A stretch of 64,000 nucleotides of DNA from Candidatus Levyibacteriota bacterium (GTDB taxonomy: Bacteria; Patescibacteriota; Microgenomatia; Levybacterales; GWA1-39-11), in the NCBI GenBank assembly GCA_018062815.1, contig JAGORM010000001.1, positions 160,774-224,773 on the forward strand, given 5' to 3'. Both the position numbers and the translations under genes were made by a program. Positions 21,978 through 43,621 of this stretch are shown one piece after another. The notes beneath the pieces are model-generated. The model saw only the letters and a list, made by a program, of their open reading frames with translations. It was not told the origin of the DNA and did no database searches. Within the stretch, counting starts at the first letter, position 1, and the number at the start of each line of letters is the position of its first letter.

Positions 21978-24479
21978 TTAATCCCCGCCTCTTTCTCTAA
22001 GTTGTCTTAAGAAAATGTTAAGATCTTTCTCGTCTGCTACTCCGTCATCATCAAAGTCTGCAATTGTATCATTGCAGTTATTGTTAATTGCACAATAAAC
22101 TGAGATGTTGTAGTCAAGAATATCAAGTATTTCGTCTTGTGTTAGGTCTCCAACAATTAGTGTTGTAGTTGGAAGAATTACATTGTTACCACTATCTTTT
22201 ATTGTATAAAAACCAGGAATGGATTTTTTAAGCGTAGGAGACCCATCGGCAAAATTCACTTTTAATTGATATGTACCAGGAGGGGTATTTAATATTGGCA
22301 TGTCTCCTATGAATACACCATTTGTGTACGTGACAGGAGTTGTTGTTCGTGAGATAACTTCCCCGTTCTTATCAATAAACTCAATATTTGCGGTTCTTGT
22401 TTTATTAATTGGATTTGTATTTCCCCCTGATCCTATTCCCGGTTGAATAATAGATATTTTTATTGTTCCTCTGGATGAGGATAATGTAGGTGTAGGATTT
22501 GAGGGGGAAGGGGTACTCACTGCAGGCGTGGTTGCAGGTATAGTTGGGGTTGGATTTTGTGGTTGATTTGTTGGAGTTGGGACAGCTGTTGTAACAGTCG
22601 GGGTTGGGTTTTGGTTGTCAGGCGCTAGGGAGTTTACCGCGCGCGCAAGATTTAATCTTGGTCCAATAGGTCTATCAGTTGAGATAACGTCAGCGTTTGA
22701 AACTAATATATTTTTTATCTCATCTGGGGACAGATTTGGATTAATGGATAAGAGCAGTCCTGCAGCTCCTGCCACGTGAGGAGTAGCCATAGATGTACCA
22801 TTAAGGCTTTTATATTGATTTTGTGGCCAAGTAGAAATAATTGATACGCCAGGAGCGCTTATATTAACAATAGAACCATAGTTTGAGAATGATGCCCGTT
22901 GGTCAGATTCAGTAGTTGCGCCAACTACAAATGTACCATTGCAATTTGCAGGAGAACTTGTAGAAGCATCAACTGGTATTCCTCCAGAGACTCCATTTCC
23001 CGCTGCAACTAGAACGCTTACATTAGCATTTTTTGCGTAGTCAACTGCTTCTTGAAATATACCACAAGGAGAATATCCACCGAGACTCATGTTGATAACT
23101 TTAGCTCCATTATCTACTGCATAATGAATTGCTTGAATAATGATAGAGTCATCTCCCTGACATTCTCCGTTGTATTGTCCCATTGCTTTAATTGCCAATA
23201 CCTTTACATTCCAATTTACCCCTACCACTCCAATACTGTTATTGGTTAATGCACCAATTGTACCGGCAACATGTGTTCCGTGTCCGCAATCATCCTGTGA
23301 GTTGTTTGTTCCGTTGAAAAAATTATATCCATTCTCAATATGTCCGATTAAGTCTTCGTGGCTAGAATCTACTCCAGAATCAATAACTGCAACCTTAACA
23401 TTATTATTCCCCTTTGCTTTATTCCAGGCGGTAGGTCCTTGAATTTTTTCCATTCCCCACATTTGTGAAAAGTATGGGTCATTTGGGATTTCTGTTGCTT
23501 GTTTGATTCCATTTTCAACCACAATCTCTACTGTGGGGAGTTTTTTATATTCATCTATCGCTTCCTGTATAGATGAACCGTTGTTTAATGTTATTACTTG
23601 CGCATTTTCTAGGGGCGTTTCATATTTTGTATTTTCAAGTAAGTTTTTTTCTTGAATAAAGCCAATTTTTTCTTTGGTTTCGGCATATAACTCCTGTAAT
23701 ACCATTGGATTTGGGGTTCTTGATACAGAATTTGCCGCATCTATAGCTGCTATCCTTGCCTTCCCAATTATGGGCTGAGAGGCAATTCTTTCTCTTTCTT
23801 GAAGATTTTCTGTCACATCAGTAGGTGTGGTGCCTTGTTTATACTGTACGATTATCTGTTGTTTCGAGCGTTCTATTGGGTTTTCCTCCATAGACTGAAT
23901 GGTTTGAGTTGTCTTAATAGAGTTTGGTGCTGCGTTTTTAACCTGCGGCAGAGCAAGGAATAATTTAATTGCTTTTTTTATGTCAGATCCTGGTCGTAAG
24001 GTTACAAGGTTAGTTGCTGATTGATTTATTTTTGTTGCGTATAAACTTTTTTGAGATATGACACCAGATTCATTTTCAACTTTTGCTATCTGCTGTAATT
24101 GATTAGTGTAGAAAGAGGTCCCTGGTATTTTTCCTGATAATTCCATGAAGAACATTTTAGTTTTATTTATAATTCCTTGAGATTTTTGTTTTCGTTCATT
24201 TAGGTTGGCCTCCAGTTGTAGGGGGGAAAGTCCCGGTTGGTACACAACTATAATTTGAGAAGAGACATTCTTTATTTGATTTGAGGCTATAGAATTTGAT
24301 GCAGCGTAGGAAAACGCATGTATAGAGCTTAATAAAATGAAAAGTATGAGTAAGATAAGACCATTTTTTAACACATATATATAGTAGCCTGCAAGAAAAA
24401 ACTTCGCAATAGGAAAAGCATACAATACTCTTTGTTTTTTAATTTCCCCCTTGACGAGTTTTGAAAGATGTAGTATCAT
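21978..24479 (-). CDS. Subtilisin-like serine protease (S8) with tandem propeptide domains, a Pro/Thr-rich linker and a C-terminal dockerin-like module.
   Basis: Catalytic triad motifs VAVIDSGVD / HGTHVAGTI / GTSMATPHVAG. Two I9-like repeats (QIIVVYQPG.., QIIVQYKQG..). PTPT-rich linker. C-terminal GDLTQDEILDILDY and DFDDDGVADEKDLNIFLRQL Ca-loop-like pair. Confidence 0.85.
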   Translation of the reverse strand: MILHLSKLVKGEIKKQRVLYAFPIAKFFLAGYYIYVLKNGLILLILFILLSSIHAFSYAASNSIASNQIKNVSSQIIVVYQPGLSPLQLEANLNERKQKSQGIINKTKMFFMELSGKIPGTSFYTNQLQQIAKVENESGVISQKSLYATKINQSATNLVTLRPGSDIKKAIKLFLALPQVKNAAPNSIKTTQTIQSMEENPIERSKQQIIVQYKQGTTPTDVTENLQERERIASQPIIGKARIAAIDAANSVSRTPNPMVLQELYAETKEKIGFIQEKNLLENTKYETPLENAQVITLNNGSSIQEAIDEYKKLPTVEIVVENGIKQATEIPNDPYFSQMWGMEKIQGPTAWNKAKGNNNVKVAVIDSGVDSSHEDLIGHIENGYNFFNGTNNSQDDCGHGTHVAGTIGALTNNSIGVVGVNWNVKVLAIKAMGQYNGECQGDDSIIIQAIHYAVDNGAKVINMSLGGYSPCGIFQEAVDYAKNANVSVLVAAGNGVSGGIPVDASTSSPANCNGTFVVGATTESDQRASFSNYGSIVNISAPGVSIISTWPQNQYKSLNGTSMATPHVAGAAGLLLSINPNLSPDEIKNILVSNADVISTDRPIGPRLNLARAVNSLAPDNQNPTPTVTTAVPTPTNQPQNPTPTIPATTPAVSTPSPSNPTPTLSSSRGTIKISIIQPGIGSGGNTNPINKTRTANIEFIDKNGEVISRTTTPVTYTNGVFIGDMPILNTPPGTYQLKVNFADGSPTLKKSIPGFYTIKDSGNNVILPTTTLIVGDLTQDEILDILDYNISVYCAINNNCNDTIADFDDDGVADEKDLNIFLRQLRERGGD
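24451..24479 (+). promoter_or_regulatory. Putative tuf promoter (TTGACG-17-TATCAT).
   Basis: -35 at 24451-56, a 17-nt spacer, -10 at 24474-79. It overlaps the start codon of the divergent subtilase gene. Confidence 0.4.
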
Positions 24480-24486
24480 TCTTTAT

Positions 24487-24510
24487 ACACCTTTAAAAAG
24501 GTGTTTTCTT
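24487..24510 (+). terminator. Hairpin plus U-tract (ACACCTTT..AAAGGTGT then TTTCTTTT) at the predicted +1 of the tuf leader.
   Basis: 8-bp inverted repeat followed by a T-rich run, ~90 nt upstream of the tuf ATG. Confidence 0.4.
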
Positions 24511-24598
24511 TTACTCAGGACAATAAATCCTTAATAAGGAAAGGCTTTCAAGCTAAATTCTAAAAAAACTGAGCAGAACGGAAAGGAATATTTAAAAA

Positions 24599-25777
24599 AT
24601 GGCAACATTTCAAAGAAACAAACCACACGTTAATATAGGAACTATCGGTCACGTTGACCATGGTAAAACCACTTTAACAGCAGCTATCACTACCGTTCTT
24701 GCAAAAAAAGGAATGGCAGAAGCTAGGAAATATGAAGATATAGACAATGCCCCAGAAGAACGAGCTCGTGGAGTTACGATTAACATTTCCCATCAAGAAT
24801 ACGAAACTGAAAAGAGACATTACGCACATATTGATGCTCCAGGACACGCAGATTACATTAAAAACATGATTACAGGAGCTGCACAAATGGATGGAGCAAT
24901 TTTAGTTGTTTCAGCAGCTGATGGTCCAATGCCTCAGACACGTGAACATATACTTCTTGCACGCCAGGTTGGAGTGCCAGCACTTGTTGTTTTCCTTAAC
25001 AAAGTAGATATGGTACAAGATCCAGAGCTCATTGATTTAGTTGAGATGGAAGTACGTGAACTTCTTTCAAAGTACCAATATCCAGGAGATGAAATTCCTA
25101 TGGTTAAAGGATCAGCTCTTAAAGCAACTCAGGGAGATGCTGAAGCTGAAGCTCAGATAATGGAATTAATGGCAAAGGTTGATGAGTATATTCCTACTCC
25201 AGAAAGACCAACAGATAAACCATTATTAATGCCTGTTGAAGACGTTTTCTCAATAAAAGGACGCGGAACAGTTGTTACTGGACGTATTGAGCGCGGAATA
25301 GTAAAAATTAATGACACAGTTGCAATTATAGGTATAAAGCCTACAAAAGAAGTTGTTGTTACAGGTGTTGAAATGTTTAGAAAACAATTGGATGAGGGGC
25401 AAGCCGGAGATAATGTAGGACTTTTGCTTCGTGGAATTGAAAAACAGGATGTAGAGCGTGGACAGGTTATTGCAAAACCAGGAAGTATTACTCCACACAC
25501 AAAATTTGAAGCTGAGGTATATATTTTGACAAAAGAAGAAGGTGGACGCCATACTCCATTCTTCTCTGGATACAGACCACAATTCTATATTAGAACAACT
25601 GATGTAACTGGTGAAATTAAACTTCAAGAAGGCGTTGAAATGGTTATGCCTGGAGACAACGCTAAGATGACTGCTGAGCTTATAGTGCCTGTAGCTATGG
25701 AAGATGGAATGAGATTTGCAATTCGTGAGGGTGGAAGAACAGTTGGAGCAGGAGTTGTTACCAAAATCTTAGCATAA
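24599..25777 (+). CDS. tuf: Elongation factor Tu.
   Basis: [15 protein letters not shown]. 392 aa. Canonical EF-Tu. Confidence 0.97.
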
Positions 25778-25797
25778 AGCTTAAGATAATCGCACAT

Positions 25798-25827
25798 TTT
25801 ACATTTAGTCTGAAAGTATGGTAATAT
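25798..25827 (+). promoter_or_regulatory. Putative promoter (TTTACA-18-TAATAT) between tuf and rpsJ.
   Basis: -35 at 25798-803, -10 at 25822-27. Confidence 0.35.
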
Positions 25828-25830
25828 AAA

Positions 25831-25858
25831 CCTCGCTCAAAAGCGGGGTTTTTTTATT
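25831..25858 (+). terminator. Intrinsic terminator or attenuator hairpin (CCTCGCT-caaa-AGCGGGG then TTTTTTTATTTT), 15 nt upstream of rpsJ.
   Basis: 7-bp stem with one G-U pair, followed by a long T-run. Located after the tuf stop and immediately before the rpsJ RBS AAGGAG. Confidence 0.55.
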
Positions 25859-25872
25859 TTTAAGGAGCAAAT

Positions 25873-26181
25873 ATGCCAAAAGGAAGAATAAGAGTTAGAT
25901 TAAAAAGTTATGATCCCAGAATTATTGATTCAACGTGTCAACAAATTTTAGACACTGCAATTCGTACTGGAGCAAAAGTAGTGGGTCCTGTACCACTTCC
26001 TACACAGCGCTCTATGTTTGCTGTTAATAAATCAGCATTTGTTGATAAAAACGCGCAAGAGCACTTTCAAATTAAGACACATAAGCGTCTTATTGACATA
26101 ATGTCTCCAACAGATAACACTATAGAGTCTCTTATTCATTTAGATCTTCCAGCAGGTGTGGATGTAGAAATTAAAATGTAG
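25873..26181 (+). CDS. rpsJ: 30S ribosomal protein S10.
   Basis: [14 protein letters not shown]... canonical S10. Confidence 0.95.
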
Positions 26182-26182
26182 T

Positions 26183-26320
26183 ATGTCTTTTTTAGAAAGA
26201 GTACCTAATCCATTTAAGAAATCAAATTCCCCTTTGCCTGACAGATTTTCTTCAAGAGAGATAAAAAAGGTTTTAAAAACCGGGGCTCCTCAGGAGATTA
26301 ATCAACTTTGGCTCGATTAA
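26183..26320 (+). CDS. Possible 45-aa small ORF directly abutting the rpsJ stop.
   Basis: ATG 1 nt after the rpsJ stop codon. MSFLERVPNPFKKSNSPLPDRFSSREIKKVLKTGAPQEINQLWLD. No RBS and no recognisable homology. Could be non-coding. Confidence 0.2.
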   Translation: MSFLERVPNPFKKSNSPLPDRFSSREIKKVLKTGAPQEINQLWLD

Positions 26321-26415
26321 TATAAAGCTAAGTTAGTCGCTGAAATAAATCACTTAACAAATTTTCAAATAATTAGGTCGATATCTCTAGCGCAGGGATT
26401 AGCCTCCTTGTGTGC

Positions 26416-26444
26416 TTGCATTTCGCTTATAACTTCTATATAAT
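26416..26444 (+). promoter_or_regulatory. Near-consensus sigma70 promoter (TTGCAT-17-TATAAT) for the rplC-led operon.
   Basis: TTGCAT at 26416-21, a 17-nt spacer, and a perfect TATAAT at 26439-44, ~120 nt upstream of rplC. Confidence 0.55.
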
Positions 26445-26523
26445 AACTTTTACTCATGTTTAGGCTTACAACCGAGACTGAATGGAATACTACATAAGAG
26501 CTTAGCTGCATTTTTTGCGTATG

Positions 26524-26550
26524 AAGCGACTTTATGTAGTCGCTTTTTTT
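26524..26550 (+). terminator. Strong hairpin plus U-tract (AAGCGACT-ttatgt-AGTCGCTT then TTTTTTT) in the rplC leader. Candidate attenuator.
   Basis: Perfect 8-bp stem, 6-nt loop and a 7-T run ending 14 nt before the rplC ATG. Confidence 0.6.
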
Positions 26551-26564
26551 GTGTTTAAGAAGAT

Positions 26565-27446
26565 ATGTCTTTACAAGCAATTATAGGAAAAAAATTAGAT
26601 CAAACGCAGGCGTTTTTGGAAGACGGAAGAAGAATTCCTCTTTCATTGATTTCTGTGTCTGGAAATGTTATTGCACAAGTTAAGACATTGGAAAAAGACA
26701 AATATACATCTGTACAGCTTGGATTCGGAGATAAAAAGAAGGTAAACAAGGCAACTGCGGGACATATAAAAAAAGCGGGAATTACAAAAACACCCCGCTT
26801 TTTTCGTGAAGTAAGAGTTGAAGATATCGCAGGATATGAAGTTGGAAAAGTTGTGAATGTTGAGGACATACTTGAGCTTGGAGACGTTATAGATGTTACA
26901 GGAACATCAAAAGGAAAAGGATATGCGGGGGTAGTTAAGAAACACGGATTTAAAGGCGGACCAAGAACTCATGGACAGTCTGATCGTGAACGTGCCCCGG
27001 GTTCAAGCGGTCAAACAACAACGCCTGGACGTGTTTATAAGGGAAAGAGAATGTCTGGACGTATGGGAAATGAACGTGTAACTATTAAAAATCTGACAGT
27101 TGTTGATATCAAAGATGGAATAATTTATGTTCGTGGTTTAGTTCCAGGAGTAAAGGGTTCATTGGTAATGATTTCAAAGGTGAAAGAAGACAAGAGAAGT
27201 CGTGCAACAAAGAAGAAATTTATTCCTCTGTTCACAATCAAAGAAGAAATTATTGAAGAAAAAGCCGTAGAGCCTGTTGCAATAGAAACAGTAGAAGTTG
27301 ATTCACTTCCGGAAGAGCCGTTGAAAGCAGTTGAAGAACAGATAGAAGAAATAGCTGAACCTACTGAAACAACAAAAGAAGAAGATTTAAAAGTAGAAAA
27401 TCAAACTAAAGAAGCTGCACCTGAGTTGAAAGAGGAGGGTAAGTAA
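26565..27446 (+). CDS. rplC: 50S ribosomal protein L3 with an ~80-aa acidic C-terminal extension.
   Basis: Canonical L3 core to ~aa 210, then a Glu/Lys-rich tail (…EEIIEEKAVEPVAIETVEVDSLPEEPLKAVEEQIEEIAEP…). Confidence 0.95.
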   Translation: MSLQAIIGKKLDQTQAFLEDGRRIPLSLISVSGNVIAQVKTLEKDKYTSVQLGFGDKKKVNKATAGHIKKAGITKTPRFFREVRVEDIAGYEVGKVVNVEDILELGDVIDVTGTSKGKGYAGVVKKHGFKGGPRTHGQSDRERAPGSSGQTTTPGRVYKGKRMSGRMGNERVTIKNLTVVDIKDGIIYVRGLVPGVKGSLVMISKVKEDKRSRATKKKFIPLFTIKEEIIEEKAVEPVAIETVEVDSLPEEPLKAVEEQIEEIAEPTETTKEEDLKVENQTKEAAPELKEEGK

Positions 27447-27448
27447 TT

Positions 27449-28240
27449 ATGGCTGAAAAAAAGACAAAAAAAGAGGTAAGTGTTACAAAAACCAAATCAC
27501 CTGTTAAGAAAACAGTTGCTAAGCCTGCAAAGGAAATTGGAAAAAGTATTGAAACAGGAAAAAAGAGCACAATTAAAGTTGTTGAGCCAAAGGAAGTCGC
27601 AACTTCCATAAAAGACACATTTTCAGTGGATGTTTATGGGTTGGACGGTAAGGTATCAGGGAAGGTAAATATTCCAACTGAAATCTTTAAAGCAAAAGTA
27701 AACGCTACTTTAATGGCACAGGCAGTAAGGGTATACCTTGCTACACAAAGAAGCGGAACATCTTCAACTAAAACACGATCAGAAGTTTCGGGAACAACTA
27801 AGAAGATGTATAGACAAAAAGGTACAGGACGCGCACGTCATGGAGCCGCAAAGGCACCTATTTTTGTGGGTGGAGGAATTGCTTTTGGTCCACGACCTAA
27901 AAGTTTTGCTCTTACTCTTCCTAAGAAAATGAGAAGAAAGGCGCTTTTTTCTGCCTTAACAAGTAAGTATTCAGAAAATAATCTTAGAGTTTTAGATACA
28001 TCACAGGTATCAGGGAAAACAAAGGAAATGGTAGAAACATTTAAAAATCTTGGGTTAACAAAAAAAGTAACCATTATAGTTACACCTGAAGAAAAACAGG
28101 TTGCCCGAGCAGCAAGAAACATTAAAGGGGTAACGGTTGAGCACGCTGCAAATTTAAATACCTATAGCGTTCTAAATAGTAATACTGTTGTCTTTGCAAA
28201 AGATGCACTCAATGTTTTGCAGAGTACATTCTTAAAATAA
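27449..28240 (+). CDS. rplD: 50S ribosomal protein L4 with an ~55-aa Lys-rich N-terminal extension.
   Basis: L4 core (GTGRARHGA...) preceded by MAEKKTKKEVSVTKTKSPVKKTVAKPAKE... Confidence 0.95.
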   Translation: MAEKKTKKEVSVTKTKSPVKKTVAKPAKEIGKSIETGKKSTIKVVEPKEVATSIKDTFSVDVYGLDGKVSGKVNIPTEIFKAKVNATLMAQAVRVYLATQRSGTSSTKTRSEVSGTTKKMYRQKGTGRARHGAAKAPIFVGGGIAFGPRPKSFALTLPKKMRRKALFSALTSKYSENNLRVLDTSQVSGKTKEMVETFKNLGLTKKVTIIVTPEEKQVARAARNIKGVTVEHAANLNTYSVLNSNTVVFAKDALNVLQSTFLK

Positions 28241-43167: not shown

Positions 43168-43621
43168 AGTAGGAACAAAAACAAAATCATCAAAAAATTA
43201 TACAAATGCGGTTGGTAGACGCAGAGAGGCTGTTGCACGTGTAAGAATTTACACTGCAGGGGGAAAGATTGAGGTTTTTGGCGAAGAGAGAGAAAGAGGA
43301 GACATAATAATAAATAAAAAGCCCGTTATGGAATACTTCTCTTTTGCATCTTCAGCGTCTAAATATAAAAAATTATTGGGCGATGCAGGTGTAGACGGAA
43401 AGTATATAATTTCCGCAAGAATTACCGGAGGAGGCCTTAATGGACAATTGGAGGCATTTGTTCATGGTGTAGCACGCGCATTAGATAAAATAGATAAAGA
43501 GAAGCATCATAAGATATTGTCAGACAACGGTTATCTTACTCGTGATCCTAGAACTCGTGAACGACGCAAGGTAGGAAACGCTGGAAAAGCACGTCGCAAG
43601 AAGCAATCACCAAAGCGTTAA
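43160..43621 (+). CDS. rpsI: 30S ribosomal protein S9.
   Basis: …GGGLNGQ…ARRKKQSPKR C-terminus typical of S9. Confidence 0.94.
   Translation: MDKVGTKTKSSKNYTNAVGRRREAVARVRIYTAGGKIEVFGEERERGDIIINKKPVMEYFSFASSASKYKKLLGDAGVDGKYIISARITGGGLNGQLEAFVHGVARALDKIDKEKHHKILSDNGYLTRDPRTRERRKVGNAGKARRKKQSPKR

What the first reader, a model, noticed from the sequence alone, without database searches (positions are those of the whole stretch)
26182..26564. rpsJ separated from rplC by a 380-nt spacer with a consensus promoter and a leader terminator abutting rplC
S10 and L3 genes are normally adjacent. Here the spacer contains a near-perfect TTGCAT-17-TATAAT (26416-26444) and, ~80 nt later, a strong hairpin AAGCGACT/AGTCGCTT plus seven T (26524-26550) ending 14 nt before the rplC ATG. 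This looks like a dedicated promoter plus attenuator for the rplC-to-rpsI block. It is analogous to the L4-responsive S10 leader but shifted one gene downstream.
Basis: partly seen in the sequence, partly recalled or inferred. Interest (0 to 1): 0.5.

Follow-up and report, generated by a model that had tools for sequence, protein, structure and literature searches.

The report
Promoter and translation-sensing attenuator before rplC
In this uncultured Levybacteria genome the main ribosomal-protein operon has been cut loose from rpsJ and has its own conserved promoter plus a roughly 100-nt leader that can fold as either a terminator or an antiterminator; a 13-codon mini-gene overlaps the antiterminator, so the operon may be tuned by how busy the ribosomes are.

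Summary
The rpsJ-rplC spacer is 383 nt. It holds TTGCAT-17-TATAAT (26416-26444) and a 9-bp hairpin plus T7 (26523-26550) ending 14 nt before the rplC ATG.

Single-genome scans do not make these significant; comparison does.
- TTGCA and TATAAT are invariant in 23 aligned relatives, over a variable 17-18-nt spacer.
- All 38 Levybacteria-like loci examined have a hairpin plus T-run just before rplC. The stem sequences differ but stay paired.
- Two relatives keep the promoter and leader although rpsJ is no longer upstream.

- The leader has a conserved alternative fold. 26489-26498 pairs with 26531-26540 (the terminator's last 5'-arm base, its loop and the start of its 3' arm), and 26500-03 pairs with 26524-27. 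RNAalifold picks this fold unaided, and it shows compensatory changes.
- An invariant ATG lies 11-12 nt after the -10 box. It opens an ORF of exactly 13 codons (26456-26497), and its last codons and stop lie in the antiterminator's 5' strand.

Best model: this is a ribosome-mediated attenuator. A ribosome finishing the mini-ORF blocks the antiterminator, so transcription stops. The promoter and terminator are near certain, the switch is likely, and the ribosome as sensor is inferred. L4 control is not excluded. No Rfam family matches. I rate it a new variant of a known kind.

The parts
25873..26181 (+). rpsJ (S10), the upstream neighbour. It is no longer coupled to rplC.
   Evidence: Pfam Ribosomal_S10, E = 6e-32. 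The protein is 100% identical in L001 and L002.
26183..26320 (+). 45-codon ORF starting 2 nt after the rpsJ stop. This is variable filler in the spacer and not part of the leader.
   Evidence: Its first ~43 aa are 49% identical to the N-terminus of a 124-aa ORF at the same place in L002. It is absent from L001, and the other relatives carry unrelated small ORFs there. It has no Pfam match.
26401..26415 (+). AGCCTC-N5-GTGC motif just upstream of the -35 box. It could be an UP-like or factor-binding element; its function is unknown.
   Evidence: The motif is conserved in the A1-type relatives and in L073. The hairpin that the scan reported here (26390-26413) is not conserved as a hairpin.
26416..26444 (+). 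Promoter: -35 TTGCAT (26416-21), a 17-nt spacer, and -10 TATAAT (26439-44). The predicted transcription start is about 26451-26452.
   Evidence: TTGCA and TATAAT are invariant in 23 aligned loci, while the 17-18-nt spacer between them varies freely. The start site is inferred from spacing only.
26456..26497 (+). Leader mini-ORF: ATG plus 12 codons plus TAA (MFRLTTETEWNTT*). It is nearly leaderless, with a predicted 5' UTR of about 4-5 nt and no Shine-Dalgarno sequence.
   Evidence: The ATG is invariant and lies 11-12 nt after the -10 box. The ORF is exactly 13 codons in all 17 loci with a 13-codon leader ORF (16 of type A1, plus L021). Its interior varies without indels. The ATG frame has 0 stops, against 18 and 27 in the other two + frames. 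The stop alternates TAA/TAG. Other leader types carry ORFs of 7-13 codons at the same position.
26489..26503 (+). 5' strand of the antiterminator: ACTACATAAG (26489-98) and GCTT (26500-03). It contains the last two sense codons and the stop codon of the mini-ORF.
   Evidence: RNAalifold predicts this as the consensus structure of alignment A3. The cells are 95.6% paired in the 10-bp helix. On alignment A4, 8 pairs show compensatory changes against 2.1 in shuffles. The pairing energy is -11.3 kcal/mol against -3.7 +/- 2.1 for shuffled upstream sequence.
26507..26519 (+). P2 hairpin at the tip of the antiterminator: TGCA (26507-10), a loop, and TGCG (26516-19). It is compatible with both folds.
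   Evidence: Three of its pairs show compensatory double changes, and the loop length varies by indels.
26523..26550 (+). Intrinsic terminator: GAAGCGACT / TTATGT / AGTCGCTTT plus a T7 run. Positions 26524-27 and 26531-40 are shared with the antiterminator's 3' strand.
   Evidence: The scan lists it, dG -11.8 kcal/mol. An equivalent hairpin plus T-run lies 3-95 nt (median about 15) upstream of rplC in 38 of 38 loci, in at least 8 different stem sequences.
26565..27446 (+). rplC (L3), the first gene of the controlled block. The block runs rplC-rplD-rplW-rplB ... rpoA-rplQ-rplM-rpsI and ends at 43621.
   Evidence: Pfam matches. The L3 protein is 100% identical to a Candidatus Levybacteria MAG protein.

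Best explanation
The 3' ~150 nt of the spacer is a self-contained control unit for the rplC-to-rpsI operon. A sigma-70-type promoter (TTGCAT-17-TATAAT) starts transcription near 26451. The ~100-nt leader can adopt two mutually exclusive folds.
1. An antiterminator: a long stem in which 26489-98 pairs with 26531-40 and 26500-03 pairs with 26524-27, capped by the P2 hairpin.
2. An intrinsic terminator: 26523-46 plus the U7 run.

The antiterminator's 3' strand is completed about 6 nt before the terminator's, so read-through is the default whenever the 5' strand is free. That 5' strand contains the last two codons and the stop codon of a nearly leaderless 13-codon ORF (26456-26497). A ribosome that has translated to the end of this ORF would cover 26489-26503. 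That would free the terminator's 5' arm, and transcription would stop 14 nt before rplC. Efficient translation (many free ribosomes) would therefore lower ribosomal-protein transcription, and scarce or stalled ribosomes would raise it.

Shown: both elements are present and conserved, the two folds are complementary and covary, and the reading frame is conserved.
Inferred: the start site, translation of the ORF, the ribosome as the sensor, and the direction of the response.

My sub-confidences are about 0.9 for the promoter plus terminator, about 0.75 for the terminator/antiterminator switch, and about 0.45-0.5 for the ribosome as sensor.
For: Promoter
- TTGCA and TATAAT are invariant in 23 loci, and the spacing is kept at 17-18 nt over a variable spacer.
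- L083 and L087 have the unit upstream of rplC with no rpsJ upstream. In L083 the upstream neighbour is on the opposite strand.

Terminator
- It is present in 38 of 38 loci, with different stems that still pair.
- In the three closest genomes the ~170 nt before rplC are almost invariant, while the 5' half of the spacer has diverged.

Switch
- RNAalifold on 16 sequences returns the antiterminator unaided.
- The TAA-to-TAG stop change goes with a U-to-C change in the terminator loop: the pair is G-C in 8, A-U in 3, and unpaired in 5.
- On 20 sequences, 93.6% of cells are paired and 8 pairs carry double changes, against 2.1 in shuffles (0 of 500 shuffles reach this). The slid controls give 29-48% paired.
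- The two folds are nearly isoenergetic: -22.5 against -21.5 kcal/mol in the window. In L018 and L081 the antiterminator is the minimum-energy fold.
- The antiterminator pairing energy exceeds that of shuffles in types A1 and A2.

Mini-ORF
- The ATG sits at a fixed distance from the -10 box and the ORF is always 13 codons.
- The interior has no indels, whereas the P2 loop does.
- The ATG frame has 0 stops in 16 unique sequences. The shuffle product for 11 representatives is about 10^-3.3.
- Among A2-like leaders the ATG lies 0, 12 or 18 nt before a conserved GAG GTG, always a multiple of 3.
- Entropy is equal at all three codon positions. This fits a leader peptide whose sequence does not matter.

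Specificity
- The covariance model hits the window once, at 26450-26550, and hits relatives only upstream of rplC.
Against: - There is no transcript, start-site or ribosome data.
- The ORF has no Shine-Dalgarno sequence and needs leaderless-type initiation from a 5' UTR of about 4-5 nt. Whether that works in these bacteria is unknown.
- The stop-codon statistic is weaker than it looks. One antisense frame has only 1 stop across the same 16 sequences.
- Constant length could reflect an RNA spacing constraint instead of a reading frame.
- Within type A1 the terminator and most of the antiterminator are invariant. Covariation therefore comes from a few pairs and from the more distant A2 sequences, which were aligned with the model, and that leans towards the structure.
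- The antiterminator energy is not above shuffles in type B leaders or in L021, L035 and L028. The 'same logic in every subclade' claim therefore holds only for A1 and most of A2.
- Type C relatives have the terminator but no clear antiterminator and no promoter of their own.
- Blocks such as GCTTAGCTGCA are more invariant than pairing alone requires, which could mark a protein-binding site.
Confidence: 0.5

Rival explanations
1. This is a ribosomal-protein-mediated (autogenous) attenuator, like the E. coli S10 leader or the B. subtilis rplJL and L20 leaders. A protein of the operon (L4, or L3) would bind the P1b/P2/terminator region when in excess over rRNA and favour the terminator. On this reading the mini-ORF is incidental or secondary.
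For: - The layout is the same as in the E. coli S10 leader: promoter, leader, then an intrinsic terminator abutting the first gene. This comparison rests on established knowledge and was not tested here.
- Blocks such as GAGCTTAGCTGCA and GCGAATGAAGCGACT are invariant across genomes whose L3 proteins are only 65-80% identical. That is more than pairing alone needs.
- The B. subtilis rplJL operon shows that ribosomal-protein-driven terminator/antiterminator switches exist (PMC4538822).
Against: - No Rfam ribosomal-protein leader matches, even at E <= 10.
- The A1, A2, B and C leaders share no common sequence motif that one conserved protein could recognise.
- The invariance can be explained because most of these bases must pair in two alternative folds.
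- This model does not explain the invariant ATG, the fixed 13-codon frame, or the stop codon sitting inside the antiterminator.
Confidence: 0.2
2. This is an unregulated promoter plus a leaky terminator. The hairpin would only insulate the operon from upstream transcription or set a fixed level, and the antiterminator and ORF would be by-products of sequence conservation.
For: - A similar hairpin plus T-run also sits 11 nt before rpsJ (25828-25861), and its stem covaries in relatives. Terminators abutting the next gene are therefore a habit of this genome.
- Type B and C relatives lack a convincing antiterminator.
Against: - The terminator lies downstream of the operon's own promoter in all 27 loci that have the promoter. 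It cannot simply insulate; it taxes the operon's own transcripts.
- The alternative fold is conserved, covaries and is nearly isoenergetic with the terminator.
- About 100 nt of near-invariant leader is more than a plain terminator needs.
Confidence: 0.17
3. This is an independent ~100-nt small-RNA or micropeptide gene, with its own promoter and terminator, that merely happens to sit upstream of rplC.
For: The unit has its own promoter, a short ORF and a terminator, and its sequence is highly conserved.
Against: - It is always immediately upstream of rplC, and it follows rplC when rplC moves away from rpsJ.
- Only 3-26 nt remain between the T-run and rplC in most loci, which leaves no room for another promoter.
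- The peptide sequence is not conserved: entropy is equal at all codon positions.
Confidence: 0.06
4. The conservation reflects a protein-coding gene on the minus strand (the 71-aa ORF at 26365-26580).
For: The minus-strand frame is open for 55-87 codons in 15 of the 17 loci examined, and it has only 1 stop in the variable stretch across 16 sequences.
Against: - It has no conserved start codon. The ATG in the P2 loop exists only in the window's subgroup.
- The frame is not kept across the 1-, 2- and 5-nt indels in the P2 loop, so different peptides are read upstream of it.
- The frame is interrupted in L018 and L021, and the ORF ends vary.
- It has no Pfam match.
- The invariant blocks are contiguous and show no third-position wobble.
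- The ORF would overlap the rplC start.
Confidence: 0.02

Closest known systems
E. coli S10 operon leader (L4- and NusA-dependent transcription attenuation)
   Same: Both have a dedicated promoter, a 100-170-nt leader, and an intrinsic terminator placed just before the first gene of the S10-type ribosomal-protein operon. In both, every transcript of the operon must pass this terminator.
   Different: Here the element sits one gene downstream, before rplC rather than rpsJ. There is no sequence or Rfam similarity. The leader contains a conserved translatable mini-ORF and an explicit antiterminator, and the E. coli leader has neither (this point rests on established knowledge). L4 involvement is untested.
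Leader-peptide (ribosome-mediated) attenuators of amino-acid operons (trp, his, leu, pheA, ilv)
   Same: Both have a short ORF in the leader and mutually exclusive antiterminator and terminator hairpins. In both, a ribosome reaching the end of the leader ORF masks the antiterminator strand so that the terminator forms.
   Different: There is no run of codons for one amino acid, and the peptide sequence is free to vary. The ORF is nearly leaderless and has no Shine-Dalgarno sequence. I found no supported segment-1 (anti-antiterminator). The controlled genes encode ribosomal proteins, so the signal would be translation capacity itself and not one amino acid.
B. subtilis rplJL leader (L10(L12)4 attenuation plus a leader peptide), PMC4538822
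   Same: It is a ribosomal-protein operon controlled by terminator/antiterminator structures, and its leader also contains a translated leader peptide.
   Different: There the sensor is the L10(L12)4 complex binding an anti-antiterminator. The leader peptide lies downstream of the terminator and acts by blocking Rho. Here the ORF lies upstream and overlaps the antiterminator.
Leaderless short-ORF attenuators in mycobacteria (bioRxiv 10.1101/834739)
   Same: Both have a short ORF at or very near the 5' end of the transcript, and its ribosome occupancy remodels downstream RNA structure to control the operon.
   Different: Those ORFs are polycysteine tracts that sense cysteine, and they act on translation by unmasking a ribosome-binding site. 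Here there is no amino-acid bias, and the target is an intrinsic terminator.
L4-Archaeoglobi ribosomal-leader candidate upstream of rplC (PMC7247131)
   Same: It is a conserved RNA motif directly upstream of an rplC-rplD-rplW-rplB operon.
   Different: It is archaeal and a different structure. It is represented in Rfam but was not matched here. No ORF or terminator logic has been described for it.

Membership tests
Sigma-70-type promoter | A -35 and a -10 hexamer separated by 16-18 nt, conserved in relatives while the spacer varies | tested here: met
   TTGCA[T/A]-17/18-TATAAT is found in 27 loci. The hexamers are invariant in the 23-sequence alignment. The -35 box matches the E. coli consensus at only 3 of 6 positions.
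Sigma-70-type promoter | A mapped transcription start about 7 nt downstream of the -10 box | not testable with these tools
   There is no transcript data. The start at about 26451-26452 is inferred.
Intrinsic (Rho-independent) terminator | A G+C-rich stem-loop directly followed by a U-tract | tested here: met
   The stem has 9 bp (4 of them G-C), dG -11.8 kcal/mol, followed by T7. This is conserved with covarying stems in 38 of 38 loci.
Transcription attenuator (terminator/antiterminator switch) | A conserved alternative helix that shares bases with the terminator and excludes it | tested here: met
   26489-98 pairs with 26531-40, and 26500-03 pairs with 26524-27. This is the RNAalifold consensus, supported by pair counts and controls and by energy against shuffles. 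It is met for types A1 and A2 and not shown for types B and C.
Leader-peptide (ribosome-mediated) attenuator | A short conserved ORF in the leader positioned so that a ribosome masks one strand of the switch | tested here: met
   The 13-codon ORF has an invariant ATG, and its stop codon lies inside the antiterminator's 5' strand. Caveat: an antisense frame is nearly as open.
Leader-peptide (ribosome-mediated) attenuator | A cluster of regulatory codons for the amino acid being sensed | tested here: not met
   The peptides vary: MFRLTTETEWNTT, MLRFISERVMPAT, MFMPNRESEVFAT and others. Only the final Thr (ACA) is constant, and no shared codon run exists.
Leader-peptide (ribosome-mediated) attenuator | The leader ORF is actually translated, and translation changes termination | not testable with these tools
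   This needs toeprinting or ribosome profiling, or a coupled in vitro system.
E. coli-type S10 leader (L4 autogenous control) | Located upstream of rpsJ as the first gene of the operon | tested here: not met
   The element lies between rpsJ and rplC, and in L083 and L087 it occurs without rpsJ.
E. coli-type S10 leader (L4 autogenous control) | L4 binding and L4/NusA-stimulated termination | not testable with these tools
Rfam ribosomal-protein leader families | A match to a curated covariance model | tested here: not met
   No family reaches the gathering score in the window except tRNA. Nothing lies on the + strand within 26400-26564 even at E <= 10.

The most novel reading that the evidence does not exclude
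Levybacteria and their relatives would control their main ribosomal-protein operon through a direct 'ribosome counter'. This is a nearly leaderless 13-codon ORF whose translation decides between an antiterminator and a terminator. Free translational capacity would then feed back on ribosomal-protein transcription with no ribosomal-protein repressor involved. It would be a cis-acting substitute for L4-type autogenous control in bacteria with minimal regulatory repertoires.
Probability: 0.35. Interest if true: 0.8.

Novelty: new variant of a known kind. Interest (0 to 1): 0.6.

Why it matters
How uncultured, genome-reduced Candidate Phyla Radiation bacteria regulate ribosome synthesis is essentially unknown. 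Known ribosomal-protein operon control relies on a ribosomal protein binding its own mRNA. Here the conserved parts are a promoter, a mini-ORF, an antiterminator and a terminator, which is the architecture of amino-acid-operon attenuators, placed in front of about 30 translation genes. If the ribosome itself is the sensor, the cell would measure translation capacity directly.

The result also has practical uses.
- It gives a clade-specific promoter consensus, TTGCA-17-TATAAT.
- It shows that rplC is an operon start in this clade.
- It explains mis-annotated, over-long L3 start sites in public records.
- It provides a covariance model that finds the leader in metagenomes.

Tried and rejected
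1. Rfam at gathering threshold and at E <= 10 found no family for the leader.
2. Single-sequence folding gave unremarkable z-scores of -0.7 to -1.8 on either strand. Structure only became visible by comparison.
3. The minus-strand 71-aa ORF was rejected. It has no conserved start, its frame is not kept across the P2 indels, and it has no Pfam match.
4. The hairpin at 26390-26413, flagged as terminator-like, is not conserved as a hairpin. Only the AGCCTC motif is conserved.
5. I considered a trp-style '1:2' anti-antiterminator between the start-codon region and the antiterminator strand. Only AUGU:ACAU (4 bp) is constant, and the flanking CUC:GAG pairing does not covary (read from alignment A3), so I dropped it.
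6. Extending the antiterminator logic to all subclades failed. The energy test fails for type B, L021, L035 and L028, and type C shows several small hairpins but no clear antiterminator.
7. The 45-aa ORF as a conserved gene family is not supported. Its only homologue among 88 loci is the N-terminus of the L002 ORF. I ran no further search on it.
8. Literature searches found no described rplC leader with an upstream ORF. The library is limited to open-access papers.
Full report
**What is there**

The window comes from a Candidatus Levybacteria (Candidate Phyla Radiation, Microgenomates) genome. Its L3 protein is 100% identical to a protein that NCBI names that way. The local gene order is as follows:
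- tuf (24599-25777)
- a hairpin plus T-run (25828-25861)
- rpsJ (25873-26181)
- a 383-nt spacer
- rplC (26565-27446), followed by rplD, rplW, rplB ... secY ... rpoA, rplQ, rplM and rpsI (ending at 43621)
- recX on the opposite strand

- TTGCAT at 26416-21, a 17-nt spacer, and TATAAT at 26439-44
- the hairpin GAAGCGACT/TTATGT/AGTCGCTTT at 26523-46
- the T7 run ending at 26550, 14 nt before the ATG

**More than chance?**

In this one sequence, no.
- The consensus scan did not list the promoter, because TTGCAT matches TTGACA at only 3 of 6 positions.
- The pattern TTGCW-N16-18-TATAAT occurs twice in the window against 0.83 expected.
- Terminator-like sites are no more frequent than in shuffles (15 against 11.8).
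- Single-sequence folding is unremarkable.
- Rfam has nothing here.

The case therefore rests on comparison with relatives.

**Relatives**

I fetched 88 loci using L3 as the probe:
- 16 from species-representative genomes
- 60 from metagenomes
- 12 via exact-protein look-ups

In outgroups rpsJ and rplC abut as usual; in L013 the gap is 2 nt. In every relative with L3 at least ~53% identical, the spacer is 105-1640 nt. In L083 and L087 rpsJ is not upstream of rplC at all.

In the three closest genomes the last ~170 nt before rplC are almost invariant, while the first half of the spacer has diverged. That first half holds the following:
- a 45-codon ORF in the window (26183-26320)
- a homologous 124-codon ORF in L002
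- nothing in L001
- unrelated small ORFs or whole genes in other relatives

So the 'spacer' is made of variable filler plus a conserved unit of about 150 nt.

**Promoter**

In 27 loci, TTGCA[T/A]-17/18-TATAAT precedes rplC. In a 23-sequence alignment, TTGCA and TATAAT are the only invariant blocks and the sequence between them varies freely. Together with the two loci that lack rpsJ upstream, this shows that rplC starts an operon in this clade. TTGCA appears to be the clade's own -35 box.

**Terminator**

All 38 loci examined have a hairpin (dG -7 to -14 kcal/mol) followed by at least 5 T. It ends 3-95 nt (median about 15) before the rplC ATG. At least eight different stem sequences occur and all still pair:
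- GCGACT/AGTCGC
- ACGACTGT/GCAGTCGT
- ACGGCTC/GAGCCGT
- GCGGCT/AGCCGC
- GTGCC/GGCAC
- GACCTC/GAGGTC
- GGTAGCC/GGCTACC
- GATAGCC/GGCTATC

The terminator lies downstream of the promoter, and no room is left for another promoter. Transcripts for L3 must therefore pass through it.

**Alternative fold**

I aligned 16 leaders of the window's type, which I call A1. RNAalifold, run without guidance, returned not the terminator but a long stem. In window coordinates:
- 26489-26498 pairs with 26531-26540. The latter is the last base of the terminator's 5' arm, its loop, and 3 nt of its 3' arm.
- 26500-26503 pairs with 26524-26527, inside the terminator's 5' arm.
- The stem is capped by hairpin P2 (26507-10 with 26516-19).

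The evidence for this fold is as follows:
- P2 shows compensatory changes in three pairs, and its loop has indels.
- In the long stem, the third base of the stop codon covaries with the terminator loop: TAG goes with C and TAA goes with T (pair G-C in 8, A-U in 3, unpaired in 5).
- A covariance model of this fold hits the window once, at 26450-26550, and hits relatives only upstream of rplC. It also picks up a second, more divergent leader type, A2 (L020, L025, L034, L021), at the orthologous place.
- On the 20-sequence alignment, 93.6% of cells pair and 8 pairs have double changes, against 2.1 in shuffles (0 of 500). Slid controls give 29-48% paired. This alignment was fitted to the model, which favours the structure.
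- The two folds are nearly isoenergetic: -22.5 against -21.5 kcal/mol in the window, and in L018 and L081 the antiterminator is the minimum-energy fold.
- The pairing between the upstream strand and the terminator's 5' half is worth -11.3 kcal/mol, against -3.7 +/- 2.1 for shuffled upstream sequence. It is also above shuffles in L018, L081, L020, L025 and L034, but not in type B leaders or in L021, L035 and L028.

**Mini-ORF**

An ATG lies 11-12 nt after the -10 box in all 17 loci with a 13-codon leader ORF (the 16 A1 loci plus L021). In every one it opens an ORF of exactly 13 codons ending ACA-TAA or ACA-TAG. In the window this is 26456-26497, MFRLTTETEWNTT*.

The evidence that the frame is conserved:
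- Codons 3-11 vary strongly but never gain or lose a base.
- Over 16 unique sequences there are 0 stops in this frame, against 18 and 27 in the other two + frames.
- The shuffle expectation for 11 representatives is about 10^-3.3 if they were independent.
- Entropy is the same at all three codon positions, so the peptide itself is not conserved.
- Other leader types have ORFs of 7-13 codons starting 9-15 nt after the -10 box. Examples are MTYTLEVNIAT*, MIIRLEVNLAT*, MEVKLRT* and MSKLLxxSLVT*.
- Among the A2-like leaders the ATG sits 0, 12 or 18 nt before a conserved GAG GTG, always a multiple of three.

Caveats:
- One antisense frame has only one stop over the same stretch.
- The ORF has no Shine-Dalgarno sequence.
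- The 5' UTR of about 4-5 nt is only inferred.

The antisense ORF itself has no conserved start, is read in different frames on either side of the P2 indels, and is broken in two loci. I reject it as a gene.

**Mechanism**

The last two codons and the stop of the mini-ORF (26489-26497) form the 5' strand of the antiterminator. A ribosome with the stop codon in its A site would cover roughly 26480-26506, which includes both 5' strands of the antiterminator. During transcription the antiterminator's 3' strand is complete about 6 nt before the terminator's.

The most economical reading follows:
- With no ribosome, or a ribosome stalled early in the ORF, the antiterminator forms and transcription reads through.
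- With a ribosome at the end of the ORF, the terminator forms and transcription stops.

This is the logic of trp-type attenuators at the 'full translation' step. Here there are no sensing codons, and the element sits in front of ribosomal-protein genes. The signal would therefore be translation capacity itself. This step is inference.

The main rival is a ribosomal protein such as L4 binding the very invariant P1b/P2/terminator region. It cannot be excluded. However, it does not explain the ORF features, and the different leader types share no common motif.

**Comparison with known systems**

The layout (promoter, leader, terminator abutting the first gene) matches the E. coli S10 leader. That leader lies before rpsJ, has no ORF, and uses L4 and NusA (established knowledge); there is no sequence or model similarity here.

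The B. subtilis rplJL leader combines ribosomal-protein-driven attenuation with a leader peptide. That peptide lies downstream of the terminator and counteracts Rho (PMC4538822).

Leaderless short-ORF attenuators are known in mycobacteria. They sense cysteine and act on translation (bioRxiv 10.1101/834739).

A survey of ribosomal-protein leaders lists an archaeal L4 candidate upstream of rplC and nothing for these bacteria (PMC7247131).

I found no description of this element, within the limits of the open-access library.

**Verdict**

The element is a new variant of a known kind: a terminator/antiterminator attenuator with a leader ORF, in an unusual place and clade.

My confidence is about 0.9 for the promoter and terminator, about 0.75 for the switch, and about 0.45-0.5 for ribosome sensing.

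Noticed in passing
window 25783-25872 (tuf-rpsJ intergenic region): A second hairpin plus T-run (25828-25861) ends 11 nt before rpsJ. It follows a conserved motif, GCACATTT(T/A)ACAT, and a -10-like TAATAT that abuts the hairpin. In relatives the stem covaries (CCTCGC/GCGAGG, CCTGCTG/CAGCAGG, CCCGGCT/AGCTGGG, CCTACT/AGTAGG). A start from this promoter-like site would fall inside the 5' arm. The tuf terminator might therefore not act on rpsJ transcripts.
   Followed up: partly
window 26183-26320; L002 2437-2811; L018 788-901; L019 1717-1830; L078 971-1327: The stretch between rpsJ and the rplC promoter is a hotspot for small, fast-evolving ORFs. The window has a 45-aa ORF and L002 a 124-aa ORF with a homologous N-terminus. 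L018 and L019 have 38-aa hydrophobic ORFs, and L078 an unrelated 118-aa ORF. In L020 and L075, 1.3-1.6 kb of other genes are inserted. The window's ORF starts 2 nt after the rpsJ stop.
   Followed up: partly
window 26401-26415: An AGCCTC-N5-GTGC motif lies directly upstream of the -35 box. It is conserved in the A1-type relatives and in L073. It may be an UP-like element or a binding site for a regulator.
   Followed up: no
L003, L027, L029, L030, L032, L033, L038, L076 (upstream of rplC): More distant relatives ('type C') have no promoter of their own in a 105-235-nt spacer. They do have an ORF beginning ATGCCCAAA (MPK..., 10-14 codons) at or near the rpsJ stop; in L003 it overlaps the stop as TGATG. 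The ORF ends in TATGATTGATTAA, which has stops in all three frames. Three small covarying hairpins and a GGTAGCC/GGCTACC terminator follow. No clear antiterminator was found.
   Followed up: partly
L020, L021, L025, L034, L035, L046 (leader ORFs): A perfect Shine-Dalgarno-like GGAGGT(G/A) lies inside the leader ORF, always read as Glu-Val and four codons before the stop (three in L046). In L034, L021 and L020 a possible start codon (TTG or ATT) follows it by 5 nt, giving a 3-codon ORF that ends at the same stop. In L035 the motif is complementary to CCUCC in the terminator. Its role is unexplained.
   Followed up: no
L088 1501-2565; L002 2953/2959; protein P0003: Public gene calls for L3 in some relatives start inside the leader. 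Examples are a 354-aa L3 in L088 starting at an ATG in the leader, and a 307-aa L3 in the L002 lineage against 293 aa here. These look like over-extended start-site annotations caused by the leader.
   Followed up: partly
window 26565-27446 and 27449-28240: L3 carries an acidic, Glu/Lys-rich C-terminal extension of about 80 aa (293 aa in total; the relatives vary in this tail). L4 has an N-terminal extension of about 70 aa before the Pfam domain begins at residue 73.
   Followed up: no
window 24451-24504: Upstream of tuf, a promoter-like site (TTGACG-17-TATCAT, 24451-24479) is followed within 8 nt by a hairpin plus T-rich tail (24487-24512). It may be a 5'-terminal stem-loop of the tuf mRNA, or an element shared with the divergent gene at 21978-24479.
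   Followed up: no
window 26365-26580, minus strand: A minus-strand frame stays open for 55-87 codons across the leader in 15 of the 17 relatives examined, yet it has none of the hallmarks of a gene. It is probably a by-product of the conserved blocks, but it weakens stop-codon counting as evidence for the plus-strand mini-ORF.
   Followed up: yes
L014 2802-2988 (Doudnabacteria): A distant Candidate Phyla Radiation genome also has a 187-nt rpsJ-rplC spacer with a long hairpin plus T-run (CCGCTAAG...CTTAGCGGTTTTTT). Separation of rpsJ from rplC by a terminator may therefore be wider than Levybacteria.
   Followed up: no
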